Shown one piece after another: positions 24,581 to 64,000 of a DNA stretch of 64,000 nucleotides (its first letter is position 1; each line of letters begins with the position of its first letter). A program made the position numbers and the translations under genes. The stretch spans positions 7,831 through 71,830 of the forward strand of contig CAZBPV010000003.1 in NCBI GenBank assembly GCA_964493885.1. The letters run 5' to 3'. Source of the stretch: Candidatus Woesearchaeota archaeon. Lineage in GTDB: Archaea > Nanobdellota > Nanobdellia > Pacearchaeales > GW2011-AR1. The notes under the pieces were generated by a model that was not told the DNA's origin, did no database searches, and worked only from the letters and a program-made list of their open reading frames with translations.

Positions 24581-24707
24581 CGCCCCCGCCAGGAATCGAA
24601 CCTGGGAGCCCAAAGGGCCCGGTTCTCTTGTTTGACAAAAACTTGACGAGCAAGTTTAAGGCTTGCCTTAACTCAAGACCGGTGCAATACCACTATGCGA
24701 CGGAGGC
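24581..24707 (-). tRNA. tRNA-Ser (anticodon UGA) with about 47-nt intron at canonical position 37/38
   Basis: Acceptor GCCUCCG/CGGGGGC, 3-bp D-stem, anticodon stem CCGGU/ACCGG with loop CU-UGA-G|intron|A, long variable arm GCCCUUUGGGCUC, T-arm CCAGGTTCGATTCCTGG. The intron spans about 24625-24671 and the mature tRNA is 80 nt. Confidence 0.7.
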
Positions 24708-44223: not shown

Positions 44224-45222
44224 ATGGAACCTTTGATATTTTCTGTAATAATAATCAGTTTCTTTTGCACTCTAATAATACTTCCATTTTGGATAAAAAG
44301 AGCTCATGCTGAGAAAATGGTTGGGAGAGATATGCATAAATTAGATAAAAGAGAAGTTGCTGAGGGTGGTGGAATAAGTGTATTGCTTGGGGTTTCTATA
44401 GGGGTTTTATTATATATTGCATTAAAAACTTTTTATTTTGGAATTGGAACTGAAATGACTGAGATATTTGCATTATTATGTGTTATACTGATTGCATCTG
44501 TTGTAGGAATGATAGATGATTTACTGGGATGGAAAAAGGGATTGAGCAAAAAATTAAGAATGTTTATTATATTTTTCGCAGCCATACCTTTAATGGTAAT
44601 TAATGCTGGTAGCTCTACCATGAGTCTTCCATTTTTAGGGGCAATTAATTTTGGGATATTATATCCTTTATTAATAATTCCTATAGGAGTTTTGGGAGCA
44701 ACAACTACTTTTAATTTTCTTGCAGGATATAATGGATTGGAAGCAAGTCAAGGAATATTAATTCTTTCTGCACTTGCTTATGTAACTTATATTACTGGGA
44801 ATGCTTGGTTGAGTATAATTGCTCTTTGCATGGTAGCTTCATTAATAGCTTTTTATTTATTTAATAAATATCCTGCTAAAATCTTTCCTGGAGATATTTT
44901 AACTTACAGTACTGGGGCATTAATAGCTTCAATAGCAATACTGGGAAATATAGAAAAAATAGCTGTAATCTTTTTTATCCCGTATATTTTAGAGGTAATT
45001 TTAAAGGTTCGTGGAAGATTAAATAAAGAGAGTTTTGGGAAATTAAATCCAGATGGCAGTCTTGACATGCCTTATGATAAAATTTATGGATTAGAACATC
45101 TGGCAATATACTTGCTTAAGAAAATCAAGCCAAGTAAAAAAGCATATGAGGAAGAAGTTGTTTGTCTAATCAATTTATTCCAAATAGCCATAATAATCAT
45201 TGGCATTCTATACTTCTTATAA
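44224..45222 (+). CDS. aglH: GT4-family polyprenyl-phosphate GlcNAc-1-phosphate transferase (AglH/GPT/MraY-WecA superfamily)
   Basis: Multi-TM with DD motif (GMIDDLLG) and NFLAGYNGLEASQG. Lies adjacent to aglB. Confidence 0.7.
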   Translation: MEPLIFSVIIISFFCTLIILPFWIKRAHAEKMVGRDMHKLDKREVAEGGGISVLLGVSIGVLLYIALKTFYFGIGTEMTEIFALLCVILIASVVGMIDDLLGWKKGLSKKLRMFIIFFAAIPLMVINAGSSTMSLPFLGAINFGILYPLLIIPIGVLGATTTFNFLAGYNGLEASQGILILSALAYVTYITGNAWLSIIALCMVASLIAFYLFNKYPAKIFPGDILTYSTGALIASIAILGNIEKIAVIFFIPYILEVILKVRGRLNKESFGKLNPDGSLDMPYDKIYGLEHLAIYLLKKIKPSKKAYEEEVVCLINLFQIAIIIIGILYFL

Positions 45223-45260
45223 AAATAAAGCTTATAAATAGAAATTTGTTCTGATTTTAG

Positions 45261-47996
45261 ATGACAGAAGATAGCTTAATTAGCACAAAAATAAATTACA
45301 AGGAAAAATTTAAGCAAATATTTCATTTTTTCAAAAATAAAAAAGTTCAGTGGGCATTAACAATAATATTCTTTTTAATTGTATTAATAGCTAGCACTTC
45401 TATTAGAGTATCTAATTTAGATAATTTAATAGATTCAACAACTGGAAATTATAGTCTTGCAGATTTAGATGCCCAGTATTTCTATAGAATTGCTCAGACA
45501 GCTGTAGATAATAATGGACTTCCTGAAATAGATAACATGCATTATATTGGAGCAAATCCTCCTTCTGGTTGGCTTAAAGAACTTTTGCCTAAATTTATTA
45601 TTTTAGTATGGGATATAGTTAAAATATTTAATTCTAGTTTTTCTTTATTAGATGCAGCTGTTTATTCTCCTGTAATCCTTTATTCAATTGGATTAATATT
45701 ATTTTTTCTGCTTGCTTATTTTTTAACAAAATCAAAATTAGCTGCTTTAATTGCTACAACTCTTTTAGCATACTCTCCTCCGTACTTGCATAGGTCAGTA
45801 GCAGGATTTGCAGATCATGATATAATGGGTATGGGAGCTATATTTTTGTGTTTTTTAATTTATGCATTGGCACTAAAGAATTTTGAGAAGAATTGGAAAA
45901 ATACAGTAGTTTATGGTATATTAACTGGATTTGGAATGGCTTTAGTTATAAGCTGCTGGGGAGGGGGGGCAACATTTGTTATCTCGGCTATTCCTTTTGC
46001 TTTTTTCTTGTATTATTTATTAAATTCAGAGAGTAAATTAAAATCTCTTGCTTTCTTTTCTTCATTAATACTTGCTAGTGTTGTATTTACTGGAGTATTT
46101 GGATTAGGAATGTCAAGTATGTATCATAGATTTTTCTTATCTTATGGTTTAGTGGTTCCTTTTGTTTTAGGTTTTATAATTATTGATTATTTTATTGGAA
46201 GAGTTTTACCAAAGATAAAAGAAAGCAAATATATACAAAAAAAGTATGAAAAATTATATTCATTATTAATTACTATTTTAATTGGAGTTATTTCTCTTCC
46301 ATTTGTTGGGAAGAGTATTTTTGTGGTAATTAAAGAAATATGGTATAGACTTTTATTTCCGTTTGGTGTTGGAAGAATAGGATTGACAGTAGCTGAAAAT
46401 GCTCAGCCTTATCTTAATGACTGGGTTGGACAGACAGGGAAGATAATATTTTATTTATTTGTATTTGGAGCAATGATTTTAGGTTTTGAATTTGTAAAAA
46501 ATATAAAGAGCAAAAAATCTAAAATCTTTTTAGCATTATCTTGGATTTATCTTATTTTTGCTATATTATTTAGCAGAATCTCATCTACTAGCTTATTTAA
46601 TGGAGAAAGTTTACTTAGTCAGTTATTTTATTTATCTGGGATTTTATTATTTTTTGGTGTATTTTTTTGGGAGTATCTTAAGGAGAGATTTAGTGCAGAT
46701 TCAAATATAATCTTGCTTATTGCTATAATATTGTTATCTATTATGAATGGGAGAAGTGCAGTAAGAGTTTTCTTAATGATTACACCATTTGTTTGCATTT
46801 CTGTTGGTTATGCAATAAATAGACTGTATATTTACTCAAAGGAAGCTAAGGATGAGCTACTTAAAATTATTTTAATTATTATGCTTATAATATCTTTAAT
46901 TGCAGTAAGTTTTTCAGGATATCAGTATTATCAATCTACTTCTCAACAAGCAATGTATGTTGGAGCTGCTGCTAATTATCAGTGGCAAAATGCAATGGAC
47001 TGGGCGAGAGAGAATACAGGAGAAAGAGATATTTTTGTTCACTGGTGGGATTATGGTTATTTTGTCCAGACAATTGGAAAACGTCCAAGTGTAACAGATG
47101 GGGGGCACTATGTTGGGTATTGGGATCATTTAATTGGAAGATATCTTTTAACAACACCTTATCCAGAGACTGCAATGAGTTATATGAAAACTAATAATGT
47201 TTCTTATTTGTTAATTGACTCAACAGATATTGGGAAATATCCTGCATATAGTTCAATTGGAAGTGATGATAATCACGACAGGTATTCTGGAATTATTGCT
47301 ATGGTTTCAGACATAAAACAAATACAAGAGACTTCAGAAGGAGAAATAAGAGTCTTTCAAGGAACATTTGGGGTTGAAGAAGATACTCTTTATGAGATTA
47401 ATGGAACTGAAATTTTTCTTCCAGGGCCAACATATAATTTAATGAACAGGCCAGAGTATAAATCTTTTGTAATAGGAGTAATTCTTGATGTTATAAAAAA
47501 TAATAATACTTCTGGATTTAAACAGCCAGAAGGAGTTTTTATGTATAATGGAAAGCAGTACAGAATTCCCTTAAAATATCTAACATATCAAGGAAGAGTA
47601 ATGGAATTTGAATCAGGATTAGATGCAGGGATTAGCATAATTCCTAATATAATAGAAGGAGGAGTTAGTGGAGGCATTCAAGTAGATAATCTGGGGGCAT
47701 TGATTTACTTGTCTCCTAGAACCTTTAATAGCCTTGTAGGACAGGTTTATATCTTGGGAGATGGATTTGGACATTATCCTGGGCTTGAAATTGCTCATCG
47801 TGAAAGTAGCCAGGTAGTAAAAAGCCTTAAATCTCAAGGCATGAGTAGTATTGGGGAGTTTGTTTACTTTAGAGGGATACAAGGGCCACTAGATATTTGG
47901 AAAGTAAAATATAATGAAAGTGTTATTGTAAGAGAGGAATTCTTAAGCATGGATGGTGGTTGGGCAGAGTTTGATAATCTTAGTTTTGTAAAATAA
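45261..47996 (+). CDS. aglB: Oligosaccharyltransferase AglB (STT3)
   Basis: 13 TM N-terminal domain and WWDYGY motif (HWWDYGYF), 911 aa. Confidence 0.9.
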   Translation: MTEDSLISTKINYKEKFKQIFHFFKNKKVQWALTIIFFLIVLIASTSIRVSNLDNLIDSTTGNYSLADLDAQYFYRIAQTAVDNNGLPEIDNMHYIGANPPSGWLKELLPKFIILVWDIVKIFNSSFSLLDAAVYSPVILYSIGLILFFLLAYFLTKSKLAALIATTLLAYSPPYLHRSVAGFADHDIMGMGAIFLCFLIYALALKNFEKNWKNTVVYGILTGFGMALVISCWGGGATFVISAIPFAFFLYYLLNSESKLKSLAFFSSLILASVVFTGVFGLGMSSMYHRFFLSYGLVVPFVLGFIIIDYFIGRVLPKIKESKYIQKKYEKLYSLLITILIGVISLPFVGKSIFVVIKEIWYRLLFPFGVGRIGLTVAENAQPYLNDWVGQTGKIIFYLFVFGAMILGFEFVKNIKSKKSKIFLALSWIYLIFAILFSRISSTSLFNGESLLSQLFYLSGILLFFGVFFWEYLKERFSADSNIILLIAIILLSIMNGRSAVRVFLMITPFVCISVGYAINRLYIYSKEAKDELLKIILIIMLIISLIAVSFSGYQYYQSTSQQAMYVGAAANYQWQNAMDWARENTGERDIFVHWWDYGYFVQTIGKRPSVTDGGHYVGYWDHLIGRYLLTTPYPETAMSYMKTNNVSYLLIDSTDIGKYPAYSSIGSDDNHDRYSGIIAMVSDIKQIQETSEGEIRVFQGTFGVEEDTLYEINGTEIFLPGPTYNLMNRPEYKSFVIGVILDVIKNNNTSGFKQPEGVFMYNGKQYRIPLKYLTYQGRVMEFESGLDAGISIIPNIIEGGVSGGIQVDNLGALIYLSPRTFNSLVGQVYILGDGFGHYPGLEIAHRESSQVVKSLKSQGMSSIGEFVYFRGIQGPLDIWKVKYNESVIVREEFLSMDGGWAEFDNLSFVK

Positions 47997-52813: not shown

Positions 52814-53633
52814 TCTCTAATCCTTTACTAAAAGGGGTAAACCTTATTCCTAGATTTGTTATTTTATGTGTATCAAAAGTTGCATTTTTTGGTATTTTGA
52901 TAGAGATTTTTTGATTTTTTTCTATAGTTATTTTAGAGTTGCTTCTCACAAGAGACTCCATGGATTTTAATAGATTAATATGATTCATTCTTTCTGGTCC
53001 AGCGAGATGAAAAATACCTCTTTGATTTTTCTTTATTAGTTCATATAATATTCTTGGGACATCTTCTACAAACAAAGGCTGTCTTACTTGCAAAGAATTT
53101 CTTAATTTAATCTCATTTCCAGATAAAATTTGGTCAAATATTCCATTTCCCTCCCCTATCCCATTATAACCATACATGATGTCTACTCTTAAAATAATTG
53201 AATTTGGATTCTTGGAAATCTCCTTCTCAGCCATAATTTTTGTTCTAGCATACTCATTTATAGGTGTTGTTTTATCTTCTTCATTATAATTTCCCTTAAT
53301 ACCATCAAAAACATAAGAAGACGAGATAAATGTAAATATTGCTCCTATCTCCTTACAAACCTCTGAAATATTTTTTGCAGTGAGATAATTTAATTTTTCT
53401 GCAAGTTTAGGATTATTTTCACATTCAAAGGAGCTAGTTAAAGCAATTGTATCAATAACTAGATTAGGTCTTTCTTTCTTCAGAAAATTATCAACTGCTT
53501 TTTTATCAGTAGCATCTACTTTTATAACGCCCTCTTGAGAATTTATGTCTGCTCCTATTACTTCAGCCTTATTTTGAAAAAAATCCATAAATTTTTTTCC
53601 TAAAAATCCAGTTCCAAAAATAATTATCTTCAT
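52794..53633 (-). CDS. SDR-family NAD(P)-dependent sugar reductase (dTDP-4-dehydrorhamnose reductase RmlD-like)
   Basis: GxxGxxG N-terminus (IFGTGFLG), 279 aa. Confidence 0.6.
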   Translation of the reverse strand: MKIIIFGTGFLGKKFMDFFQNKAEVIGADINSQEGVIKVDATDKKAVDNFLKKERPNLVIDTIALTSSFECENNPKLAEKLNYLTAKNISEVCKEIGAIFTFISSSYVFDGIKGNYNEEDKTTPINEYARTKIMAEKEISKNPNSIILRVDIMYGYNGIGEGNGIFDQILSGNEIKLRNSLQVRQPLFVEDVPRILYELIKKNQRGIFHLAGPERMNHINLLKSMESLVRSNSKITIEKNQKISIKIPKNATFDTHKITNLGIRFTPFSKGLEIIKKQF

Positions 53634-54727
53634 TTTAAAGATTCATAGATTTTTTTATATTTTTTTGATAGAGGGGTTAATCCATATTCTTTCAAATATC
53701 TTTCGCATTCTTTCACCATTTTTTTATAATTTTTAGGTTTTATTGCTTCTTTAATAATCTTAGGGTACTCTTTATCATTCTTTGCTATTTTAATACATCC
53801 AAAATTATTGGATATTTCATTAAAGAATTTTATATTGCTTGCTATTACTGGCTTTTTAACAGCCATAGCGTGTGCAAAAATTCCACTTCCAATTCCGCCT
53901 CTATAAGGGAGGAGGACTAAATCTGATGCTGAAAAATATTCCCACCATAGAGGATTTTTATCAGTAATATCAAAAATATCAAATCTAACAAACTTAGAGA
54001 GATTATTTTTCTTTACATATTCTTGATTTTCAGTTAAATATTCAGTTGTTCTTTGTTTATTTCTATCATTAATTGGAGCAGGATTTGCAACAACAAGGAT
54101 TGTCTTTCCTATTTTATCTGCTTGCTTAATAATTATATCATGTCCATGGTCTGGAACTATACTTCCCATGAATAAATAAACATTTCCAGTTAGTTTGAAT
54201 TTTTTCTTTGCCTTTTCCTTTGAAATAGTTTTTACATCTTCTATAATTGCTTGAGGGAATATCTCTATTTTTCTTGGATTAACCCCATATTCCTTGACTA
54301 ATATCGCCTTGAAAAAATTAGCATGAACAATAATTTTATCTGAAGCATAGTTTATTACTCTATTCTGGACTCTATAAAGCATTTTTCTTAAGAATATTTT
54401 TAAAAATCCATCTTTAAATTTTTCTTTTTGAGATAAAATAGTATGCATAGTTGTAATAATCTTAGCTCTGCTCAGAAATAGAATAAAATAAAGAAAAAAG
54501 AAAGGAATCCCATATCCTCCTAAAAGATTATACTCGTGTTGAATATGTATTAAATCATACTTGCATAACTTCCCTATTTTTTTAAAAATTGACCAGGGAT
54601 TTCCTGCGATATAAGTCACATTATCTATATTAATTTCATTCTTTCTCATACTTTCTGTAAGAGTCGTGGAATATCCAGAAATTGCTTTTTCAGATTCCCT
54701 TGAAGGGAAAACCATTGCTGCTTTCAT
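53630..54727 (-). CDS. Glycosyltransferase (GT-B, family 4-like)
   Basis: C-terminal GT-B nucleotide-binding half; 365 aa. Confidence 0.55.
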   Translation of the reverse strand: MKAAMVFPSRESEKAISGYSTTLTESMRKNEINIDNVTYIAGNPWSIFKKIGKLCKYDLIHIQHEYNLLGGYGIPFFFLYFILFLSRAKIITTMHTILSQKEKFKDGFLKIFLRKMLYRVQNRVINYASDKIIVHANFFKAILVKEYGVNPRKIEIFPQAIIEDVKTISKEKAKKKFKLTGNVYLFMGSIVPDHGHDIIIKQADKIGKTILVVANPAPINDRNKQRTTEYLTENQEYVKKNNLSKFVRFDIFDITDKNPLWWEYFSASDLVLLPYRGGIGSGIFAHAMAVKKPVIASNIKFFNEISNNFGCIKIAKNDKEYPKIIKEAIKPKNYKKMVKECERYLKEYGLTPLSKKYKKIYESLK

Positions 54728-55698
54728 TTTTGTCTATTTTTCCAGTATTCTATTGTCCTTCTCAAACCTTCTTCAGGAGTAACTTTTTGCTCCCATCCAA
54801 GAATCTTTTTTGCCTTAGAAGAATCAAGAACAAGGTAGCTTTGGTCTGAAGTAATTGGTCTATTTGGATATCCTGGAGGATATTCTCCAAAATGAATCTT
54901 CTCAACAGGAAAACCAAGTACTTTAGCTATTTTTAATGTCCATTCTTTATTAGTATACCCCTTTCCTCCAGCAATATTAAAGACTTTTCCTTTTGCTTCT
55001 GGAGTTTTCATTGTAAGGAGATAAGAATTAACATGATCATCTACATACATATAATCTCTAATAGAGTCTGGAGCTCCAATATAAATTTCATTTCCTTTAA
55101 GCATCTCTGTTATAACATACTCTGTGAAAAAGCTCGGGTCATATTTTCTTCCGAAAGTGTTTGAATTTCTTAATACAACCCCGTTAAAGTCATATACTGT
55201 AAATAACATTCTCATATACATATCCATAGATGCTTTTGCAACTGCATAAGGGCTTGAGGGTTCTAATCTTAAATCTTCTACTGAAGGAACAGGTTCCTGA
55301 AAGCCATAGACTTCTGCTGTTGATGCTACAACTAATCTTACTTTTTGAGGGCCATATAAATCTCTTAATGATTCTGCTATATTTACTGTCCCTAAAAGGA
55401 TAGATTTTTGATAATCAAATGGATGTTCAAAACTCAATCTTACAGGAGAAAGTGCCGCAAGATGAATAACAACACTTGGGTTTACTTTTTTTATTGAGTT
55501 TCTAACTGAAAAATAGTCAGTAATATCACAAGTTATAATCTTTATTTTTCCTTCTAAATCTTCAAGAGCCTCATTGTTTCTTCCTACAACATGTCTAATC
55601 AAACCAAAAACTTCATGGCCTTCTTTAACTAATTTATGAGCTAATTCTGCTCCAATAAAACCTGTTATTCCTGTGATAAGGACTTTCATAAACTCCAA
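54724..55698 (-). CDS. NAD-dependent nucleotide-sugar epimerase/dehydratase (GalE/UDP-xylose synthase-like)
   Basis: GITGFIG Rossmann motif, catalytic YAVAK. Confidence 0.8.
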   Translation of the reverse strand: MEFMKVLITGITGFIGAELAHKLVKEGHEVFGLIRHVVGRNNEALEDLEGKIKIITCDITDYFSVRNSIKKVNPSVVIHLAALSPVRLSFEHPFDYQKSILLGTVNIAESLRDLYGPQKVRLVVASTAEVYGFQEPVPSVEDLRLEPSSPYAVAKASMDMYMRMLFTVYDFNGVVLRNSNTFGRKYDPSFFTEYVITEMLKGNEIYIGAPDSIRDYMYVDDHVNSYLLTMKTPEAKGKVFNIAGGKGYTNKEWTLKIAKVLGFPVEKIHFGEYPPGYPNRPITSDQSYLVLDSSKAKKILGWEQKVTPEEGLRRTIEYWKNRQK

Positions 55699-55784
55699 TA
55701 ATAGAACAGATTTATAAATTTATTGATAGCATAAAAGAACTAAAATATAGTTATATTTTTAAATGCCTCACTATTTTAAAATTC

Positions 55785-56495
55785 ATGAAATTAAAGACTG
55801 CAGTTATTATAGCTGGAGGGAAAGGAACTCGTTTAGGAGAAATAGCAAATGAAATTCCTAAACCAATGGTACTATTAAATAATAAACCTATTTTGGAGAG
55901 GATAATTCATTGGCTTAAAAATAATGGGGTGTCTAATATAGTTATAGGAGTTGCTTATAAAAAAGAGAAAATAAAAGAGTATTTTGGGGATGGTTCTAAA
56001 TTTGGGGTTAAGATTATATATACTGAACATGATGAAAATGGCGGAACAGAAGATGCATTTAAAACAGCTATAGAAAAATCAGGCATTCAAGATGAAAATT
56101 TCTATGCAATGAATGGGGACCAAATAACTGACTTACAACTTGAAGGGCTTACAAATTCACATATTGAGAGCAAGGCAATTGCAAGTGTTGTTACAATCAG
56201 ACTAAGAACAAATTTTGGAATAGTAAAAACAGATAGTGCAGGGTGGGTAACTGAATTTCAAGAGAAAAAAGTAGTTCCAGAGGTTATAATGAATTGCGGA
56301 ATTTATGTATTTAATAAAAAAATAAAAGAGTATCTGACTGGAGGAAACATTGAGTTAAATGCTTTTAAAAAATTAATTACTGAAAAGAAACTTCGTTCAT
56401 TTTTTTATGATGGAATGTGGACAAGCGTCAATGACCAAAAAGAACTAAAGGCTGCAGAAGAAATACTAAAAAAATATGATGGATTAATGGAATAA
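55785..56495 (+). CDS. Sugar-1-phosphate nucleotidyltransferase
   Basis: AGGKGTRL motif; paralogous to the HddC-like gene at 62291 (shared YFGDGSKFGV). Confidence 0.75.
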   Translation: MKLKTAVIIAGGKGTRLGEIANEIPKPMVLLNNKPILERIIHWLKNNGVSNIVIGVAYKKEKIKEYFGDGSKFGVKIIYTEHDENGGTEDAFKTAIEKSGIQDENFYAMNGDQITDLQLEGLTNSHIESKAIASVVTIRLRTNFGIVKTDSAGWVTEFQEKKVVPEVIMNCGIYVFNKKIKEYLTGGNIELNAFKKLITEKKLRSFFYDGMWTSVNDQKELKAAEEILKKYDGLME

Positions 56496-57996: not shown

Positions 57997-58872
57997 TTAT
58001 TTTCTATAACTATCGGCTGCTTTTTCAAATTCCTCAAGAGTATATTGAGTCATTGGATGAGAGACAGATTCTCCTAAAATTACTTCATTACTCTTAAAAC
58101 TTCTTTTAGTTTGTTTTAAATTTAGAATGTTATCTAACCCTTTTACTATTTTTGTGGGAATTGTAATTATCTGTGGTTCTGCCTGAACAATTCTATAAAT
58201 ATCACTAGGTTCTCTTATACTCCCAACAATTAATTCAGAATTTGGGTTATTATCAAGTAATTGAGCAACCTTTGCTATATCTTCTAAAGTTTTTCTCCAA
58301 GCAACTTCAAGATTTGTTTTTCGTGATTCGGCGACTAACTTTTTCCAATCTGGATTTCTTTGTATCCCTGTTAATGAATGTCCCGCTAATTCTAATAAAT
58401 AACTATCTAACATTCTATTAGCAAATAAACTAACATAACCAATTCCATGCTTAGAAGCCTCTAGTGCTTGATAAGGAGTCATACACGCAGTTATATTTGT
58501 CTTAATTCCTCTTTTAGCCAAATCCTCTGCTGCTAAAAGTCCTCCTTGACAAATTGGAATCTTTATTATGACATTTTTACCCCAACTGCTAAGAGTTTCT
58601 GCTTGCTGCAATAAAACATCCCTAACTTTTTCTGGTTCAACAACTCCATCAAAAGTTCTTACATCAATTCCTCTTAAATCTGTTTCAAGACTAACTGGAA
58701 CATCGGGGTATTTTTCAAGAATTGTTTTGCAAGCGCCTTCAAAACCAAGAGATAAATCTCCTGTTGTTTCCATTATTTTTGGGTTAGTAGTTATTCCATC
58801 ATCAACTCCTTGGGAAAAGCAATAAGCTATTTCTTCAAGATTTGCTGTATCTGCAAATAATTTTATTGCCAT
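57997..58872 (-). CDS. tal: Transaldolase-family protein
   Basis: FADTANLEEI...GITTNP N-terminus and central block IKIPICQGGLLAAEDLAKRGIKTNITACMT. Its GC content is higher than the surroundings. Confidence 0.7.
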   Translation of the reverse strand: MAIKLFADTANLEEIAYCFSQGVDDGITTNPKIMETTGDLSLGFEGACKTILEKYPDVPVSLETDLRGIDVRTFDGVVEPEKVRDVLLQQAETLSSWGKNVIIKIPICQGGLLAAEDLAKRGIKTNITACMTPYQALEASKHGIGYVSLFANRMLDSYLLELAGHSLTGIQRNPDWKKLVAESRKTNLEVAWRKTLEDIAKVAQLLDNNPNSELIVGSIREPSDIYRIVQAEPQIITIPTKIVKGLDNILNLKQTKRSFKSNEVILGESVSHPMTQYTLEEFEKAADSYRK

Positions 58873-59492
58873 TGTTTTACTCCCTTATTATATTCATTGA
58901 CTAATTCTCTTAGTCTATCAACTATTAAATGCTGCAAAACTCCATGAAATCCTTCTGTGTGTGGAGTTGAATCTTTAGGAACAACAATGCAAACATCTGC
59001 CCTTTCTTTCATTTTTCCTCCATCAAAACCAGCTAAACCAAGAATTTTTGCATTTCTTTTTTTTGCAAGATTCATTGCCTCAACAAGATTTCCACTCCAA
59101 CCGCTTCCGCCATGAACTGAAATTAATAAAATAACATCGCCTTCTTCAAGGAAAGTGTTTAACAATCCACTATAAGCTTTGTCCCACCCAGAATCATTTA
59201 TCCAGGCAGTTAAGACTGAAGGGTTGTCATTTAAGCACACAGCTTTTAATCCTCGAGTAGAACTTATTTCTTTCATTGAGCTGTCATTTGCAATGGTTTT
59301 CATTAAATCTGCTGCAAAATGTGATGCTGTTCCTGCACTTCCACCATTGCCCATTGTAATTACTTTTTTTCCTTTTTTCCAAGTTTCAAATAAAATATTT
59401 ATGAATTTGTCTATGTCATTTCTATTGATGTCCCGAACAATATCGCTTGTTTCGCTCATGTATTTGTCAATATATCTTTTATTATCTTCCAT
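58863..59492 (-). CDS. gmhA: D-sedoheptulose-7-phosphate isomerase (SIS domain, GmhA)
   Basis: GNGGSAGTASHFAADL motif. Start chosen at MEDNK; the track ORF starts at 59522. Confidence 0.8.
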   Translation of the reverse strand: MEDNKRYIDKYMSETSDIVRDINRNDIDKFINILFETWKKGKKVITMGNGGSAGTASHFAADLMKTIANDSSMKEISSTRGLKAVCLNDNPSVLTAWINDSGWDKAYSGLLNTFLEEGDVILLISVHGGSGWSGNLVEAMNLAKKRNAKILGLAGFDGGKMKERADVCIVVPKDSTPHTEGFHGVLQHLIVDRLRELVNEYNKGVKQWQ

Positions 59493-60468
59493 GATATACC
59501 ACCTTGCATCCTTCCTTGTCAAATCTAAAGGGCATTTCCTTTAATCCAAGTTTAGCCATGGCATTTCTTAATTGTGGCTTGTGGTTGTCACAATAAAACA
59601 TTAAAAATCCTCCGCCTCCTGCTCCTACAATCTTCCCGCCCAAAGCTCCATTTTGAAGTCCAATTTCATAAGCCTTGTCAATATCATTAGAAGACATTTT
59701 TTTAGAGAAACTTTTTTTTGCTTCCCAATGAACATTCAGCCATTTTCCGACTTTAGCTGCTTCTCCGTTTTCAAGAGCTTTTTTAATTTCTTCTCCAATT
59801 TCCTTAATTAAATGCATTTGTTTCATTTTTTCAGAATCTGATTCTGCATTCTTTTTTTGTTCACTAAGAATTTCTCCTGTTTCACGTTTTATTCCTGTAC
59901 TAAACAAAAGCAGATTATTTTCAAGCTCTTCTATTGTAGAAAAAGATGCGTCTATTGGACTTACAACTACATTCCCTTTTTTATCAATATCCAGATGAAT
60001 TACATCCCCGAAAGCAGCAAGATATTGGTCTTGTTTTCCAATTGGTTCTCTAAGAACATTTATTTCTATATCTGCAGCTTCTTCAGCTAGTTTTTTAGCA
60101 GAAACATCCTCTCTTTTATAGATATGCAATGCCTTAAGCAAAGCAACAAGAAAAGTGCTTGAAGAACCTAATCCAGTTCCAGCAGGAACATCGGCTATTG
60201 AAGTTATTTCAAGAGGGTCATTAATATTAAGATATTTTAAAGCTGCCTTGATTCTTGTATGTTCAATATCATCAACTTTTTTTGCAAATTCTGTTTTAGA
60301 GTATCTGATAAAGAAATCATCATAGAAATCTCTTTTCTCAACGATTATATAAATATATTTATCAATTGCAGCTGAAACTAAGGAGCCTCCAAATTTAGAA
60401 GAATAAAAAGGCAAGTCAGTTCCTCCTCCTCCAAGAGAAATTCTTAATGGTGCTCTAACAACAATCAT
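59482..60468 (-). CDS. hddA: GHMP kinase, D-glycero-alpha-D-manno-heptose-7-phosphate kinase (HddA-like)
   Basis: RAPLRISLGGGGTDLPFY N-terminus and GHMP motif GLGSSS. Confidence 0.8.
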   Translation of the reverse strand: MIVVRAPLRISLGGGGTDLPFYSSKFGGSLVSAAIDKYIYIIVEKRDFYDDFFIRYSKTEFAKKVDDIEHTRIKAALKYLNINDPLEITSIADVPAGTGLGSSSTFLVALLKALHIYKREDVSAKKLAEEAADIEINVLREPIGKQDQYLAAFGDVIHLDIDKKGNVVVSPIDASFSTIEELENNLLLFSTGIKRETGEILSEQKKNAESDSEKMKQMHLIKEIGEEIKKALENGEAAKVGKWLNVHWEAKKSFSKKMSSNDIDKAYEIGLQNGALGGKIVGAGGGGFLMFYCDNHKPQLRNAMAKLGLKEMPFRFDKEGCKVVYHGR

Positions 60469-60631
60469 TTTTAATCCTCAAACTTAATAAAAAAGGTTGC
60501 TTTATAAAGTTTATTGCGAAATGTTTATAAATATTCTAAAGGATACATTAAAAGGGGGGAAATGTGTTCTTATTTGATCGTTCTTCTTTGAGTATGATAA
60601 AACTTAAAAGATATTCATTAATATTATAATC

Positions 60632-61723
60632 ATGAAAAAAATAGGAATAGTTGGGGCAGGGATATTTGGGTTAAGTGCTGGATTAGAGCTTGTTAAAAAA
60701 GGCTATGATATTACTATTTTTGATGAAGCGGAAGAGATTCTTTCAGGAGCATCTACTACTAATCACTTAAGACATCATTATGGTTTTCATTATCCGCGAA
60801 GCAAAGATACTGTATTAGAAGTAACAAAAGCTCGAGAAAGTTTTGAAAGGGAATATGGTGAATCTATAAGTGAATTTTTTCCTGATTATTATGGATGTCA
60901 TATGAAAAGAAGTCAAACAACTCCTAAAAACTTTATAAGGTTTTGTGAAGAAATGAAACTTCCATATGAAATAGAATGGCCAGGTATGAAATATATGGAT
61001 AGAACTGACATTGGTGTCTGTGTAAGGGTTCCTGAAAGAGTTTATGATCCAGAAGAATTAAAAAAATTAATTTATAAAAAATTAAAAGAAACTACAATAA
61101 AACTTAAACTAAATTATAAGATAATTGGTGGAGAGATTTTAAGCAAGAAAAAGAAATTAAAATATGAATCTGAAGGAAGGGTTGGTGAAGAAGAATTTGA
61201 TTTTATAATAAATGCTACTTATTCTAATTTTAATAGTTTCAATAAATGGTTTGGATTTCCAAGGAAAAAATTACAATATGAAAAAATGGAATTACTTGAA
61301 TTAGAAATTCCAAGCCAGAATAAAATAGGTTTAACAATTATGGATGGAGAATTTAGTGCTGTTCTTCCCAGAGGCAATAAAGGAACTTTTACTCTTGGGC
61401 ATGTTAAAGAATCTGTTTTAAAGACTGTAATTTCTGATGATTTAGATGTTAGTGTCATGACAGATGAACAAACAAAATCAAACAGAGAAGGAATCATGAG
61501 AGAAGGAATAAAAGATTTTCCTTTTTTGAAGAATGCAAAAGTGGTAAAATCCTTGTTTGTTACTAGAGTTATAAAGCCAGACGTAGAAGCTACTGATGAA
61601 CGTCCATCTGAAATAACTGATTATGGAAATGGTATGTACTCTATCTTCGGAGGAAAGGTTATTACTTGTGTGGAAATTGCCAAAAAAGTTGCACAAATGA
61701 TTGAAGAGGAATCTAAAAAATGA
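60632..61723 (+). CDS. FAD/NAD(P)-binding oxidoreductase
   Basis: GIVGAGIFGLSAG dinucleotide-binding motif. Confidence 0.55.
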   Translation: MKKIGIVGAGIFGLSAGLELVKKGYDITIFDEAEEILSGASTTNHLRHHYGFHYPRSKDTVLEVTKARESFEREYGESISEFFPDYYGCHMKRSQTTPKNFIRFCEEMKLPYEIEWPGMKYMDRTDIGVCVRVPERVYDPEELKKLIYKKLKETTIKLKLNYKIIGGEILSKKKKLKYESEGRVGEEEFDFIINATYSNFNSFNKWFGFPRKKLQYEKMELLELEIPSQNKIGLTIMDGEFSAVLPRGNKGTFTLGHVKESVLKTVISDDLDVSVMTDEQTKSNREGIMREGIKDFPFLKNAKVVKSLFVTRVIKPDVEATDERPSEITDYGNGMYSIFGGKVITCVEIAKKVAQMIEEESKK

Positions 61724-62307
61724 TAAAAGCATTATTTTTAGATAGAGATGGGATAATAAATAAAATGATTAAGAAACTTGACCCTTTTACTAAAAAGATA
61801 ATTGATGATTCTCCATTTAAAGTTTCTGAATTAAAGATGGTCCCAGAATCAAAAGAGCTTGTGAAAAAAGCAAAAGAAAAGGGGTACAAGGTAATTATAA
61901 TCACTAATCAGCCTTCAATAGTCAAGGGACAATTTTCATTAAAAGATTATGAAGATATCACCACAGAAATATGTAAGTATCTGGAACTAAAAAGAGGGGA
62001 TGTTTTTGAGTGCTTGCATAAGGAGGGGATTACATTGGAATGCAATTGCAGAAAACCAAAACCAGGACTTTTTTTAATGGCGAAAGGAATACATGACATT
62101 GACTTAACAAATTCAATTATGATTGGTGATTCTTGGAAAGACATTAAAGCTGCTAAAGATATTGGGATTGGGAAGACTATTTTTATTAAAAGAAAAGAAT
62201 CAAAAGAACAGGTAGGTAATGCTGATGCTGAAAGGAAAATGAAAGAATTAAATCTTATTCCCACTCATTTTTGTGATAATCTTAAAGAGACTATAACTTT
62301 AATTTAA
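61720..62307 (+). CDS. gmhB: D-glycero-D-manno-heptose-1,7-bisphosphate phosphatase (HAD, GmhB)
   Basis: FLDRDGIIN motif I, CxC...RKPKPG zinc/motif II, GDS motif III. Confidence 0.8.
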   Translation: MIKALFLDRDGIINKMIKKLDPFTKKIIDDSPFKVSELKMVPESKELVKKAKEKGYKVIIITNQPSIVKGQFSLKDYEDITTEICKYLELKRGDVFECLHKEGITLECNCRKPKPGLFLMAKGIHDIDLTNSIMIGDSWKDIKAAKDIGIGKTIFIKRKESKEQVGNADAERKMKELNLIPTHFCDNLKETITLI

Positions 62308-63049
62308 CTTTTCCAGATTCTATCTCTTGTTTTGCTAGATTATATCTAGACAATTGCCCAACTTCTTTAAAATAACAATCACTATAATATGCAAAAAGAT
62401 TTTTTCCTTTTTTTATCAGTTCTGGAAAGATATCCCTTGCAAAATCACTAAAATCTTCTGGAATAAACTCTAAAACTTCTGGATTTAATATATATATTCC
62501 TGAGTTGGTTAATTTTCTATTATCTGGTATATTCTTTAAAAATTCTATTTGTTTTTTATTAGGATTTTCAATAATATTGGTAATTCTATTTTCAGCATCA
62601 AAAACAACAGCTCCAGGGGTAGTTTTTTCATCTGCCATTTCTTGCTTATGTAAAAATAAGGTAGCAAGGGCTTTCTTTTCTTTATGGAATTTAATCATTT
62701 TGTCCAAGTTTACATCTGTGATATTGTCTCCATAGAGCACAATAAAGGGCTCAGAAGAATCAAGGAAATCTCTAAAATTATTTAATGCGCCAGCAGCCCC
62801 AAGCAGTTCTTGTTCAAAAGAGTATCTTATATCCACTCCAAATTTACTTCCATCTCCAAAATACTCTTTTATTTTTTCAGGCAGATAAGAAGTATTAATC
62901 GCAATATCCCTTATTCCATATTTTTTGCATAATAAGATTAAATATTCAAGCAAAGGTTTTCCGTTAATTGGAATCATTGGCTTAGGGATATTGCTTGTCA
63001 ATGGTTTAAGCCTTTCTCCTTTTCCAGCACATAAAATAATTGCTTTCAT
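62291..63049 (-). CDS. hddC: D-glycero-alpha-D-manno-heptose-1-phosphate guanylyltransferase-like nucleotidyltransferase (HddC-like)
   Basis: MKAIILCAGKGERLKPLT...PKPMIPINGKPLLEY closely parallels HddC. Confidence 0.7.
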   Translation of the reverse strand: MKAIILCAGKGERLKPLTSNIPKPMIPINGKPLLEYLILLCKKYGIRDIAINTSYLPEKIKEYFGDGSKFGVDIRYSFEQELLGAAGALNNFRDFLDSSEPFIVLYGDNITDVNLDKMIKFHKEKKALATLFLHKQEMADEKTTPGAVVFDAENRITNIIENPNKKQIEFLKNIPDNRKLTNSGIYILNPEVLEFIPEDFSDFARDIFPELIKKGKNLFAYYSDCYFKEVGQLSRYNLAKQEIESGKVKLKL

Positions 63050-63071: not shown

Positions 63072-64000
63072 TTAAAGTTTTTTCCTATAAATCATCAAAC
63101 CAAACAAATAGAAATATCTGCTGATTAGTGTTGCTATTGCTACTCCTACAACTGCCATGAAAAAACTATATTGCACAAGCCACGTGATTAAGATGTAGTT
63201 TAATATAATGTTGAGAAGTGTTGAAACTAATAATAATACTGCAATAAGTTTTGTTTTTCCTTGAGATATAAAATAAGATTCATATAACAAGGAGATTGGG
63301 ATGCATAACAACAATATAGCTAAAAGTCTTAAGATGTTTGTTGCTTGCGAGTATTCAATTCCAAATACAATTCTTACTGCTAATCCTGCGAAAATCAATG
63401 TTCCTATTAATGCTAAAGCAGACATGAGAAGCATGAACTTCATTGATTTCTTGAATCCTCTTTCAAGTCTTTTTCCTTTTAATCTGCTGAATATGGGAAA
63501 TAATGCAGGAGCAAAACTGATTATGGGTATTAATCCGCCAATTAAGCTAAATGCTGCCTTATAATAACCAATAAATTCAGGCAAAACATATCTACCTAAC
63601 ATTACTATGTCAATATAACCAAAAAATACCCCTGAAAGTGCTGTTGCTGAAAGAGGAAGAATAAACAACCATAGACTTCTTTTTTCTTGCTTGCTTAAGT
63701 CTTGGGATTTTTCATGAACAAATGGAATTTTATTTCTCATTAAAATAAGTATGTAGATTAAAGAAATAAGATAAGACAATGCAAGTGCTAAAATAATCCA
63801 AAACAAAGTATCTTGTGCAAGTGAAGAGCTTATTGTTAATAAAATTGCAAGGGGGACAAAAATCAGTCTAAGTATCTGAAATAATATTTCCTTATACATT
63901 GGATACTTGAATTTATTACTTGCAAAGAATGTGGCATCTGCAATTGAAATAAATCCAAGAGAAAGGATATACAAAGAACCTGCAACTAAAGCAAGAGAAA
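63072..64000 (-). CDS. Wzx-like (MOP superfamily) oligosaccharide flippase, N-terminus beyond window
   Basis: Polytopic membrane protein. Its frame stays open to the window edge; the track M at 63974 is a TTG inside the ORF. Confidence 0.6.
   Translation of the reverse strand, partial: SLALVAGSLYILSLGFISIADATFFASNKFKYPMYKEILFQILRLIFVPLAILLTISSSLAQDTLFWIILALALSYLISLIYILILMRNKIPFVHEKSQDLSKQEKRSLWLFILPLSATALSGVFFGYIDIVMLGRYVLPEFIGYYKAAFSLIGGLIPIISFAPALFPIFSRLKGKRLERGFKKSMKFMLLMSALALIGTLIFAGLAVRIVFGIEYSQATNILRLLAILLLCIPISLLYESYFISQGKTKLIAVLLLVSTLLNIILNYILITWLVQYSFFMAVVGVAIATLISRYFYLFGLMIYRKKL

What the first reader, a model, noticed from the sequence alone, without database searches (positions are those of the whole stretch)
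57997..63049. Complete GDP-D-glycero-D-manno-heptose pathway (Tal, GmhA, HddA, GmhB, HddC) embedded in the AglB N-glycosylation island
This is the gene set used by Aneurinibacillus thermoaerophilus to make the activated heptose for its S-layer glycan: sedoheptulose-7-P isomerase (GNGGSA), GHMP heptose-7-P kinase (RAPLRISLGGGGTDLPFY), HAD bisphosphate phosphatase (FLDRDGIIN, CxC...RKPKPG) and a guanylyltransferase-like NTP-transferase. A transaldolase that can supply sedoheptulose-7-P lies in the same convergent gene block. Together with AglB, GPT, WecB, several GTs, four methyltransferases and a flippase, this predicts a heptose-containing, methylated N-glycan. That is unusual for an archaeon, and the transaldolase is noticeably GC-richer, hinting at horizontal acquisition.
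Basis: partly seen in the sequence, partly recalled or inferred. Interest (0 to 1): 0.6.

Follow-up and report, generated by a model that had tools for sequence, protein, structure and literature searches.

The report
Transaldolase-primed heptose-nucleotide cassette in DPANN archaeon
A small archaeon carries, beside its protein-glycosylation enzyme AglB, a six-gene unit predicted to make an activated seven-carbon sugar from central metabolites; the same unit occurs in many bacteria and archaea, appears never to have been characterised, and its enzymes differ from the textbook heptose pathway at defining positions.

Summary
The ORFs and quoted motifs are all present.

The source is a DPANN archaeon (Nanoarchaeia MAG). 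The kinase groups with solved heptose-7-P kinases, not galactokinase. The "HddC" scores better as a Man-1-P guanylyltransferase or UGPase type.

The main result is that the set is a conserved cassette. Kinase, NTP-transferase, SIS isomerase, HAD phosphatase and transaldolase are syntenic in about 55 of 80 loci across many bacterial phyla and several archaeal lineages. Gene fusions support the linkage: SIS::TAL, TAL::SIS, NTP-transferase::HAD and FADox::HAD.

Its members are distinct subfamilies. The kinases form their own clade. The isomerase has invariant Asp, Glu and Val where canonical GmhA has Glu, Gln and Thr.

The best reading is a heptose nucleotide made from sedoheptulose-7-P that the linked transaldolase supplies. 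Sugar configuration, nucleotide and the flavoenzyme step are unresolved. A lincomycin-like octose route is not excluded.

The "GC-rich, so horizontally acquired" claim fails. Heptose is already known in an archaeal N-glycan.

The parts
57997..58872 (-). Cassette transaldolase (291 aa), short-type TAL with a DPANN-specific helical insert at about residues 157-210
   Evidence: Pfam TAL_FSA 101 bits over the full length. The PDB best hit is T. acidophilum transaldolase. Residues invariant across 54 cassette-linked homologues: D8, T29, N30, E63, K104 (Schiff base), N126, T128, S148, F150, R153, S218, R220. AF2 model pLDDT 95.2; nearest folds are the short decameric transaldolases, TM 0.76-0.81 normalised to the target. 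The protein is 100% identical to an NCBI Nanoarchaeia MAG protein.
58863..59522 (-). SIS-domain ketose/aldose-phosphate isomerase (GmhA-like, distinct D/E subfamily). The likely start is the ATG at 59492. It overlaps tal by 10 nt and the kinase 3' end.
   Evidence: TIGR00441 gmhA 99.8 bits, below the 209 cutoff. The PDB best hit is C. jejuni GmhA 1tk9. In 53 of 53 cassette SIS proteins the tetrad is H68/D72/E190/H198, with K75 and V136 invariant, where canonical GmhA has Glu, Gln and Thr (PMC7705670). It is fused to TAL in DPANN relatives.
59482..60468 (-). GHMP anomeric sugar-phosphate kinase (HddA/WcbL-like, separate clade)
   Evidence: NCBIfam HddA 184 bits, cutoff 600. PDB 3k85/WcbL/4n3o score 147-160 bits, far above fucokinase and galactokinase. 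Catalytic R9 and D147 correspond to WcbL R13 and D163. In an NJ tree the 80 cassette kinases form one clade, separated by a long stem from WcbL and 3k85.
60469..60631 (.). 163-bp AT-rich divergent intergenic region between the tal-SIS-kinase operon and the FADox-HAD operon; it contains TTTATAAA-like motifs
   Evidence: Sequence read directly. Promoter function is inferred, not tested.
60632..61723 (+).
   Evidence: Pfam DAO and NAD_binding_8. The family has about 190 proteins, mostly DPANN. It is fused to the HAD phosphatase in P0245. It lies inside the cassette operon in Elusimicrobiota, Dehalococcoidales and a further contig and in Pacearchaeota L081. AF2 pLDDT 93.4; Foldseek places it in the glycine/sarcosine oxidase and GlpD/GlpO fold at 11-17% identity.
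61720..62307 (+). HAD-IIIA sugar bisphosphate phosphatase (GmhB-like) with a Zn loop
   Evidence: NCBIfam GmhB models are the best hits (110 and 93 bits, below cutoffs), while the HAD-IIIA and histidinol-phosphatase domain cutoffs are passed. The PDB best hit is E. coli GmhB. Invariant D8xD10, C98xH100...C108xC110, R111-K112-P113 and G136-D137 in 36 homologues.
62291..63049 (-). Sugar-1-phosphate nucleotidyltransferase of the cassette (nucleotide unknown)
   Evidence: Pfam NTP_transferase 156 bits. It is 40-63% identical to the NTP-transferase next to the kinase in DPANN loci, against 30-37% for the paralogue at 55785. Best family hits are Man-1-P guanylyltransferase and UGPase, not HddC. An NTP-transferase::HAD fusion in Lachnospiraceae ties this step to the phosphatase.
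44224..47996 (+). Context: GT4/GPT initiating transferase (44224-45222) and STT3/AglB oligosaccharyltransferase (45261-47996)
   Evidence: Pfam Glycos_transf_4 115 bits and STT3 62 bits. AglB also lies within 10 kb of the cassette in Pacearchaeota L081 and Undinarchaeota L053.
63072..63974 (-). Context: Polysacc_synt/MatE-type flippase, N-terminus probably beyond the window end
   Evidence: The Pfam Polysacc_synt match covers only profile positions 125-273.

Best explanation
The block is the DPANN version of a widespread, conserved and apparently uncharacterised 'transaldolase-primed' higher-sugar nucleotide cassette. Most likely the dedicated transaldolase makes sedoheptulose-7-P from fructose-6-P plus erythrose-4-P. 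The D/E-type SIS isomerase, which is physically fused to the transaldolase in relatives, converts it to an aldoheptose-7-P. The GHMP kinase phosphorylates C1. The Zn-loop HAD-IIIA phosphatase removes the 7-phosphate. The NTP-transferase then forms an NDP-heptose (GDP is likely but unproven). The neighbouring glycosyltransferases and methyltransferases would use it to build a lipid-linked glycan that is flipped and transferred by AglB. A DAO/GlpD-fold flavoenzyme coupled to the phosphatase adds a redox step at the sugar-phosphate stage; one possibility is oxidation at C6 of the glycerol-3-phosphate-like tail. What is shown: gene content, catalytic residues, synteny, fusions, folds. What is inferred: substrates, order of steps, sugar configuration, nucleotide, and N-glycan as the destination.
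For: Synteny: homologues of Tal, SIS, HAD and NTP-transferase lie within about 3 kb of the kinase in most of 80 loci from more than 10 bacterial phyla and from Woese-, Pace-, Nano-, Micrarchaeota and Thermoplasmatota. Of loci with enough flank, only about five lack Tal. Fusions: SIS::TAL in DPANN (P0134, P0144 and others); an independent TAL::SIS fusion inside a complete cassette (P0439, L092); NTP-transferase::HAD; SIS::HAD (P0371) and GHMP::SIS (P0458); FADox::HAD (P0245). Enzyme identity: the kinase groups with heptokinases and has conserved catalytic Arg and Asp. The transaldolase catalytic set and phosphate site are invariant and of the Glu/Phe transaldolase type, and the fold is confirmed. 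The GmhB hallmarks are invariant. S7P as the intermediate: a D/E-type SIS is also fused to the C-half of a split transketolase in an operon with HldE::GmhB and a GT9 heptosyltransferase-like gene (L089). Sedoheptulose-7-P is the ketose product shared by transaldolase and transketolase. AglB link: AglB lies within 10 kb of the cassette in the window, L081 and L053. An archaeal N-glycan with a heptose is already known (PMC12448462).
Against: No protein reaches its NCBIfam equivalog cutoff. The SIS isomerase replaces canonical GmhA's catalytic Glu, its Zn-associated Gln and a substrate-binding Thr with invariant Asp, Glu and Val (PMC7705670), so the substrate or product stereochemistry may differ. 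The kinase clade is separated from every characterised heptokinase by a long branch. Bacteria with a full pentose-phosphate pathway still keep the dedicated Tal, which is unexpected if it only supplies a common metabolite. L089 also encodes a canonical GmhA, so its transketolase-fused SIS need not perform the GmhA reaction. Nucleotide specificity is ambiguous. AglB is not adjacent in five other DPANN loci. No biochemical data exist.
Confidence: 0.55

Rival explanations
1. [quoted passage not shown] The transaldolase merely boosts sedoheptulose-7-P supply and the FAD oxidoreductase is unrelated.
For: The best family hits for kinase, isomerase and phosphatase are HddA, GmhA and GmhB. JGI auto-annotation uses these names.
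Against: The isomerase lacks three residues conserved in canonical GmhA. The kinase forms a separate clade. The NTP-transferase is closer to Man-1-P guanylyltransferase and UGPase types than to HddC. The FADox is fused to the phosphatase and embedded in cassette operons in several phyla.
Confidence: 0.2
2. A lincomycin-like octose route, or another non-heptose higher sugar. The transaldolase transfers a C3 unit from fructose-6-P or sedoheptulose-7-P to ribose-5-P to give octulose-8-P. [quoted passage not shown]
For: The five enzyme types are identical to the characterised Lmb set (PMC4351081, table 2 and its refs 13 and 14). A dedicated transaldolase is near-obligatory for this kinase clade, whereas the characterised GDP- and ADP-heptose clusters are not known to carry one (the latter from general knowledge). 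The variant isomerase active site could fit a different substrate or a gluco-type product. The closest non-lincosamide relative of CcbO is from Acidobacterium, a phylum that carries the cassette.
Against: LmbR/CcbR is an ordinary 222-aa actinobacterial-type transaldolase (47% to Cellulomonas Tal), and CcbP and CcbO are only 37-38% identical to their nearest outside relatives, so orthology is not shown. A few cassette loci lack Tal yet sit within the same kinase clade, which fits a substrate available from central metabolism. The transketolase::SIS fusion lies in an HldE/GmhB/GT9-like heptose operon. The transaldolase phosphate site is unchanged. Lmb sequences could not be obtained for a direct comparison.
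Confidence: 0.12
3. Coincidental neighbourhood: the transaldolase is the organism's housekeeping pentose-phosphate enzyme, and the kinase and NTP-transferase act on hexoses (galactokinase, Man-1-P guanylyltransferase), so there is no heptose pathway.
For: NCBI and RefSeq name homologues 'galactokinase' and 'transaldolase (pentose-phosphate shunt)'. DPANN metabolic reconstructions count any transaldolase as PPP (PMC8407392 and PMC11606122).
Against: Synteny across domains and four kinds of gene fusion. The 10-nt tal/SIS overlap. The kinase scores about 100 bits higher on heptokinases than on galactokinases.
Confidence: 0.03

Closest known systems
[quoted passage not shown]
   Same: The same four reaction types and protein superfamilies. 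The kinase, isomerase and phosphatase give these families as best hits. The catalytic Arg and Asp of the kinase and the DxD plus Zn loop of GmhB are conserved.
   Different: A dedicated transaldolase is part of the operon and in some relatives part of the isomerase polypeptide. The kinases form a separate clade. The isomerase has Asp, Glu and Val for canonical Glu, Gln and Thr. The NTP-transferase is not HddC-like. A flavoenzyme is coupled to the phosphatase. All scores fall below the equivalog cutoffs.
Lincomycin/celesticetin GDP-octose pathway: LmbR (transaldolase), LmbN (isomerase), LmbP (kinase), LmbK (phosphatase), LmbO (guanylyltransferase)
   Same: The only characterised pathway with the same five enzyme types in which a transaldolase makes the ketose phosphate that enters the isomerase, kinase, phosphatase and nucleotidyltransferase sequence (PMC4351081).
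   Different: It is an actinobacterial antibiotic cluster. LmbR is an ordinary 220-aa transaldolase, whereas the cassette Tal is a distinct subfamily of about 240 aa (about 290 aa in DPANN). Orthology was not tested because no sequences were available. The product there is a C8 sugar.
ADP-heptose pathway (GmhA, HldE, GmhB) with GT9 heptosyltransferases
   Same: It also starts from sedoheptulose-7-P. Locus L089 shows this pathway with a dedicated split transketolase fused to a D/E-type SIS domain, so it follows the same design of a built-in sedoheptulose-7-P source.
   Different: It uses a PfkB-type kinase/adenylyltransferase (HldE) instead of a GHMP kinase plus a Rossmann-type NTP-transferase. 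The intermediates are beta-anomers.
Archaeal AglB N-glycans containing heptose (Thermoplasma acidophilum: D-glycero-D-galacto-heptose)
   Same: A precedent for a heptose in an archaeal N-glycan (PMC12448462). Thermoplasmatota MAGs carry the cassette (L037, L079).
   Different: The biosynthetic genes for that heptose are not established. No glycan data exist for DPANN.

Membership tests
Transaldolase (TAL/FSA family, short subfamily) | Schiff-base Lys on beta4 plus the Asp, Glu, Thr/Asn catalytic set and the Ser-x-Arg and Arg phosphate site | tested here: met
   D8, T29, N30, E63, K104, N126, T128, S148, R153, S218 and R220 are invariant in 54 homologues and align with TacTAL D6, T27, N28, E60, K86 and so on.
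Transaldolase (TAL/FSA family, short subfamily) | Glu and Phe (transaldolase) rather than Gln and Tyr (fructose-6-P aldolase) at the discriminating positions | tested here: met
   E63 and F150 are invariant. The discriminating rule comes from general knowledge of FSA/Tal engineering; PDB entry 4xz9 is the TacTAL E60Q/F132Y variant.
Transaldolase (TAL/FSA family, short subfamily) | TIM-barrel fold of the short decameric transaldolases | tested here: met
   AF2 pLDDT 95.2; Foldseek TM 0.76-0.81 (target-normalised) to 8c4i, 1vpx, 3s0c and 3r8r.
Transaldolase (TAL/FSA family, short subfamily) | NCBIfam equivalog score cutoff | tested here: not met
   The best hit is TIGR00875 at 90.6 bits against a cutoff of 245.95. 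The Pfam TAL_FSA cutoff is met.
GmhA (sedoheptulose-7-P isomerase) | SIS fold with the GNGGS motif and two conserved His residues | tested here: met
   Pfam SIS_2; H68 and H198 invariant.
GmhA (sedoheptulose-7-P isomerase) | Catalytic Glu (Mtb Glu65/66), fully conserved Gln173 and Thr122 (PMC7705670) | tested here: not met
   These positions are Asp72, Glu190 and Val136 in 53 of 53 cassette SIS proteins, and Lys75 is an additional invariant residue.
GmhA (sedoheptulose-7-P isomerase) | TIGR00441 equivalog cutoff | tested here: not met
   99.8 bits against 209.45. The canonical GmhA of L089 scores 204.9.
[quoted passage not shown] | GHMP kinase with the catalytic Arg and Asp of WcbL, and heptokinases as best hits | tested here: met
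   R9 and D147 correspond to WcbL R13 and D163. The score gap to galactokinase is about 100 bits.
[quoted passage not shown] | Equivalog cutoff, and clustering with characterised members | tested here: not met
   NF049969 scores 184 bits against a cutoff of 600. In the NJ tree the cassette kinases form a separate clade (no bootstrap, and the PDB sequences were partial).
GmhB (heptose-1,7-bisphosphate 7-phosphatase) | HAD-IIIA DxD nucleophile motif and the CxH...CxC Zn loop | tested here: met
   D8xD10, C98xH100 and C108xC110 are invariant. The HAD-IIIA domain models pass their cutoffs.
GmhB (heptose-1,7-bisphosphate 7-phosphatase) | GmhB-specific model cutoffs | tested here: not met
   NF006506 scores 109.7 against 178; TIGR00213 scores 93.2 against 149.6.
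HddC (heptose-1-P guanylyltransferase) | Best match to the HddC family or structures | tested here: not met
   HddC model 105 bits (cutoff 300), against 159 for Man-1-P guanylyltransferase. PDB HddC 6jq8 scores 67 bits, against 152 for UGPase 8x7s.
HddC (heptose-1-P guanylyltransferase) | Functional linkage to the heptose kinase and phosphatase | tested here: met
   Orthologues lie adjacent to the kinase in 58 loci, and the enzyme is fused to HAD in Lachnospiraceae.
Lmb-type GDP-octose pathway | Transaldolase, isomerase, GHMP kinase, HAD phosphatase and NTP-transferase in one cluster | tested here: met
Lmb-type GDP-octose pathway | Orthology to LmbR/N/P/K/O, and use of ribose-5-P as acceptor | not tested
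   Lmb sequences and the primary JACS papers were not available.
AglB-dependent N-glycosylation locus | STT3/AglB, an initiating GPT, glycosyltransferases and a flippase in one island | tested here: met
   The arrangement recurs in L081.
AglB-dependent N-glycosylation locus | The heptose is actually incorporated into an N-linked glycan | not testable with these tools
   This needs glycoproteomics on an uncultured DPANN archaeon.

The most novel reading that the evidence does not exclude
[quoted passage not shown] It would instead make an undescribed activated higher-carbon sugar. One option is an octose built on ribose-5-P, as in lincomycin biosynthesis. Another is a heptose of non-manno configuration, or one oxidised or epimerised at C6 by a GlpD-like flavoenzyme acting on the glycerol-3-phosphate-like tail of the heptose phosphate. 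That sugar would be a component of DPANN N-glycans and of surface glycans in many uncultured bacterial phyla, as well as Lawsonia intracellularis and Rhizobium jaguaris.
Probability: 0.3. Interest if true: 0.75.

Novelty: new variant of a known kind. Interest (0 to 1): 0.55.

Why it matters
There are four reasons.

1. The work defines a widespread operon that the searchable literature does not describe. Databases mislabel its parts as "galactokinase" and "transaldolase (pentose-phosphate shunt)". It predicts a heptose-type sugar on the surfaces of DPANN archaea, many uncultured bacterial phyla, the pig pathogen Lawsonia intracellularis and Rhizobium jaguaris.

2. DPANN metabolic reconstructions count any transaldolase as evidence for a pentose-phosphate pathway. 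Part of that signal may be this glycan-dedicated enzyme.

3. The invariant active-site changes in the isomerase, and the flavoenzyme fused to the phosphatase, point to chemistry beyond the textbook pathway that can be tested in vitro.

4. Cultured carriers make the question experimentally tractable.

Tried and rejected
- **GC and codon-usage test for recent HGT.** Negative: Tal is compositionally typical.
- **Lmb sequences and primary papers.** PMC3486926 and PMC3932030 are not held. The supplement of PMC4351081 gives only identities and accession numbers. A direct Lmb-versus-cassette phylogeny was therefore impossible.
- **PDB sequence search for the FADox.** It found only the N-terminal dinucleotide motif. 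The fold search places it in the DAO/GlpD family but cannot name a substrate.
- **WcbL structure paper.** It has no heptose-phosphate complex, so the distal pocket of the kinase could not be compared.
- **Representative-library search with the SIS::TAL fusion.** It shows only one full-length fusion cluster at 50% identity, so the DPANN fusion is one lineage event and not many. The independent TAL::SIS fusion (P0439) partly compensates.
- **Transketolase::SIS fusion.** It first looked decisive for sedoheptulose-7-P, but its locus also has a canonical GmhA, so I downgraded it to supportive.
- **FADox absent from all 80 genome-contig loci.** I first read this as "window-specific". The larger protein database and contig look-ups corrected that.
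- **NTP-transferase at 55785-56495 as the true HddC.** It scores higher on the HddC model, but it is only 30-37% identical to the cassette NTP-transferases of DPANN loci, against 40-63% for the 62291 gene. I therefore rejected it as the cassette enzyme.
- **Literature searches.** Searches combining transaldolase with gmhA/hddA or with heptose cluster terms found no description of the cassette.

Full report
**Observation.** The interval 57997-63049 contains six ORFs, not five:
- a TAL/FSA-family protein, 57997-58872(-);
- a SIS-domain protein, 58863-59522(-). The gene call on an identical contig starts at the ATG equivalent to 59492;
- a GHMP kinase, 59482-60468(-);
- a HAD-IIIA phosphatase, 61720-62307(+), whose start overlaps the oxidoreductase stop by 4 nt;
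- an NTP-transferase, 62291-63049(-).

The tal, SIS and kinase genes overlap one another (10 nt, and 11-41 nt depending on the SIS start), so they form one operon. A 163-bp AT-rich spacer separates it from the divergent FADox-HAD operon. All quoted motifs are present.

The surrounding island is as described. It holds GT4/GPT, STT3/AglB, WecB, three GT1/GT4-type glycosyltransferases, four methyltransferases (one a sugar C-methyltransferase), an RmlD-like reductase, a 4,6-dehydratase-like SDR, a second NTP-transferase and a flippase. All of this lies directly downstream of the ribosomal spc operon, SecY and aIF-2B.

**Organism.** The Tal protein is 100% identical to a "Candidatus Nanoarchaeia archaeon" MAG protein. 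A 6.9-kb contig of GCA_035256385.1 is identical to the window over this block. The nearest relatives of every gene are Woese-, Pace- and Nanoarchaeota. The window has 30.6% GC.

**Family assignment of each enzyme.**
- *Kinase.* Its best NCBIfam model is HddA (184 bits; galactokinase 59). Its best solved relatives are the three heptokinase structures 3k85, WcbL and 4n3o (147-160 bits, against 52-59 for fuco- and galactokinases). WcbL's catalytic Arg13 and Asp163 are conserved as Arg9 and Asp147.
- *NTP-transferase at 62291.* Here the criterion is met. It scores 159 bits on a Man-1-P guanylyltransferase model and 152 bits on a UGPase structure, but only 105 and 67 bits on HddC.
- *Isomerase and phosphatase.* They hit GmhA and GmhB best.
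- *Cutoffs.* No protein reaches its NCBIfam equivalog cutoff.

**The set is a conserved cassette.** I fetched 80 loci around kinase homologues from one-genome-per-species contigs. I then located homologues of the window proteins by tblastn and by clustering all ORFs within 6 kb.
- *Co-occurrence with the kinase.* NTP-transferase in 58 loci, Tal in 54, SIS in 52, an extended SDR in 50, HAD in 36 plus 10 as a fusion, Gfo/Idh/MocA in 32, a classical SDR in 23, and a nucleotide-sugar dehydrogenase in 13 (Pfam).
- *Operon orders.* The recurrent orders are SDR-NTP-KIN-SIS-HAD-TAL (Ignavibacteria, Clostridia, Aminicenantes, Chloroflexi, Woesearchaeota) and [SDR-dehydrogenase-SDR-Gfo]-KIN-NTP-SIS-HAD-TAL (Legionella, other Gammaproteobacteria, Verrucomicrobia, Acidobacteria).
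- *Loci without Tal.* Combining, only about five loci with enough flanking sequence lack a linked Tal.
- *Cultured carriers.* These are Rhizobium jaguaris CCGE525 (KIN-NTP-SIS-HAD-TAL) and Lawsonia intracellularis plasmid 3. In Lawsonia, RefSeq calls the kinase "galactokinase" and the Tal "transaldolase, pentose-phosphate shunt".
- *Literature.* I found no paper that mentions a transaldolase together with gmhA and hddA or with heptose cluster terms.

**Gene fusions tie the steps together.**
- SIS::TAL proteins of about 495 aa occur in DPANN. They collapse to one cluster at 50% identity, so this is a single lineage event.
- An independent TAL::SIS fusion in the opposite order (P0439) lies inside a complete bacterial cassette.
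- NTP-transferase::HAD is found in Lachnospiraceae and Eubacterium.
- SIS::HAD and GHMP::SIS::GAF also occur.
- FADox::HAD occurs as P0245.

These fusions exclude the idea that the transaldolase is a chance housekeeping neighbour.

**The cassette enzymes are distinct subfamilies.**
- *Kinases.* In an NJ tree the 80 cassette kinases form one clade, on a long stem away from WcbL and 3k85.
- *Transaldolase.* It keeps every catalytic and phosphate-binding residue and is of the Glu/Phe transaldolase type. A confident model (pLDDT 95) matches the short decameric transaldolases. The DPANN forms carry an extra long helix.
- *Isomerase.* Canonical GmhA uses a catalytic Glu, a fully conserved Zn-associated Gln and a conserved Thr in the phosphate loop (PMC7705670). 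All 53 cassette SIS proteins have Asp72, Glu190 and Val136 instead, plus an invariant Lys75. The protein probably works like GmhA, but it fails the membership test for GmhA, and the manno configuration of the product cannot be assumed.
- *Phosphatase.* It has the GmhB hallmarks: DxD, the CxH...CxC Zn loop and RKP.
- *NTP-transferase.* The DPANN form (AGKGERLKPLT) is a different subtype from the bacterial cassette form (AGGLATRLRPLT). The nucleotide is unknown.

**The flavoenzyme.**
- *Distribution.* The FADox family has about 190 members, mostly DPANN.
- *Context.* It lies in the cassette next to AglB in a Pacearchaeota contig (L081). In Elusimicrobiota, Dehalococcoidales and another contig it lies inside the cassette operon, each time next to an RmlD/dehydratase-like SDR of about 290 aa.
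- *Fold.* It has no sequence relative in the PDB beyond the FAD motif. A confident model (pLDDT 93) has the glycine/sarcosine oxidase and GlpD/GlpO fold. E. coli GlpD gives the highest query-normalised TM-scores (0.76-0.78), but the margin is too small to discriminate.
- *Proposed role.* Fusion and translational coupling to the 7-phosphatase suggest it acts on a phosphorylated intermediate. The C5-C6-C7-OPO3 tail of a heptose-7-phosphate resembles glycerol-3-phosphate, so I propose C6 oxidation, which with the SDR might give epimerisation. This is inference only.

[quoted passage not shown] There the transaldolase LmbR builds octulose-8-P (PMC4351081 and the work it cites).

Points in favour of a non-standard substrate here:
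- the near-obligatory Tal;
- the separate kinase clade;
- the altered isomerase.

Points in favour of sedoheptulose-7-P:
- a few Tal-less loci nest inside the same kinase clade;
- the Tal phosphate site is unchanged;
- LmbR is an ordinary transaldolase unrelated to this subfamily's architecture;
- a D/E-type SIS domain is fused to the C-half of a split transketolase in an operon with HldE::GmhB and a GT9 heptosyltransferase-like gene (L089). Sedoheptulose-7-P is the ketose product that transaldolase and transketolase share. The caveat is that L089 also has a canonical GmhA.

About 20-40% of DPANN genomes reportedly carry bacteria-derived transketolase and transaldolase (PMC8407392), so an erythrose-4-P source is plausible. 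Such surveys may also be counting this cassette Tal as PPP.

My probabilities are 0.55 for a variant sedoheptulose-7-P-derived heptose, 0.20 for the strictly canonical product, and 0.12 for an octose or similar.

**Horizontal transfer and "unusual for an archaeon".**
- *Composition.* It gives no signal. Tal has GC z=+0.8, GC3 z=-1.8 and codon-usage distance z=-1.2.
- *Phylogeny.* The DPANN kinases form one group nested among bacterial SDR-NTP-KIN-SIS-HAD-TAL loci. This fits an old inter-domain transfer followed by vertical spread, given more than 100 DPANN clusters at 55-98% identity.
- *Precedent.* Heptose is already known in an archaeal N-glycan (Thermoplasma), and automated JGI annotation already labels these kinases as heptose-7-P kinases.

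**N-glycan link.** AglB lies within 10 kb of the cassette in the window, in Pacearchaeota L081 and in Undinarchaeota L053. It does not in five other DPANN loci. The link is plausible but unproven.

**Verdict.** What is there is a new variant of a known kind of pathway, and it is of moderate interest.

Noticed in passing
window 51563-56495: A second sugar-nucleotide module: NTP-transferase (55785-56495), 4,6-dehydratase-like SDR (54724-55698), RmlD-like reductase (52794-53633) and a Methyltransf_13/14 sugar C-methyltransferase (51563-52813). Together they predict a branched-chain C-methyl deoxy sugar. The same C-methyltransferase plus RmlD-like pair sits next to the cassette in Elusimicrobiota L083, which has only the cassette NTP-transferase, so these enzymes might instead tailor the heptose nucleotide.
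   Followed up: partly
window 24581-24707 (-): Rfam finds a 127-nt tRNA (41.5 bits) that ARAGORN did not report. It is probably an intron-containing archaeal tRNA.
   Followed up: no
L089 7177-12112: An ADP-heptose operon with its own split transketolase: Tkt N-half, Tkt C-half fused to a D/E-type SIS domain, a canonical GmhA, and a triple fusion HldE (kinase and adenylyltransferase)::GmhB. A GT9 heptosyltransferase-like gene lies upstream. Why two different SIS isomerases are present is unexplained.
   Followed up: partly
L086 (Lawsonia intracellularis plasmid 3, NC_008014.1 8286-23257): The obligate intracellular pig pathogen carries the cassette on a plasmid: SIS, HAD-IIIA, transaldolase, nucleotide-sugar dehydrogenase, SDR, Gfo/Idh/MocA, 'galactokinase' and nucleotidyltransferase. 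A 1089-aa hypothetical protein and a GH99-like protein lie next to it. The RefSeq names hide the pathway.
   Followed up: partly
P0452, P0505 (L091): D/E-type SIS domains are fused, in both orders, to inositol-monophosphatase/FBPase-family phosphatases. This could be another route to, or another use of, a ketose phosphate such as a sedoheptulose bisphosphatase. The contig was too short to show context.
   Followed up: no
L088 (Rhizobium leguminosarum plasmids, e.g. NZ_CP007049.1 61412-76383): A more distant GHMP kinase (40% identity) sits with a 649-aa multidomain 'HAD-IIIA family hydrolase' (NTP-transferase plus HAD), an NAD(P) oxidoreductase and a 509-aa FAD-dependent oxidoreductase. There is no SIS or Tal. 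It is a related but different system, present on 57 Rhizobium plasmid records.
   Followed up: no
L081 3568-5082 and 12811-14301: In the Pacearchaeota AglB/cassette island, two B12-binding radical-SAM enzymes flank the cassette. This hints at radical C-methylation or another modification of the glycan. They are absent from the window, which has SAM methyltransferases instead.
   Followed up: no
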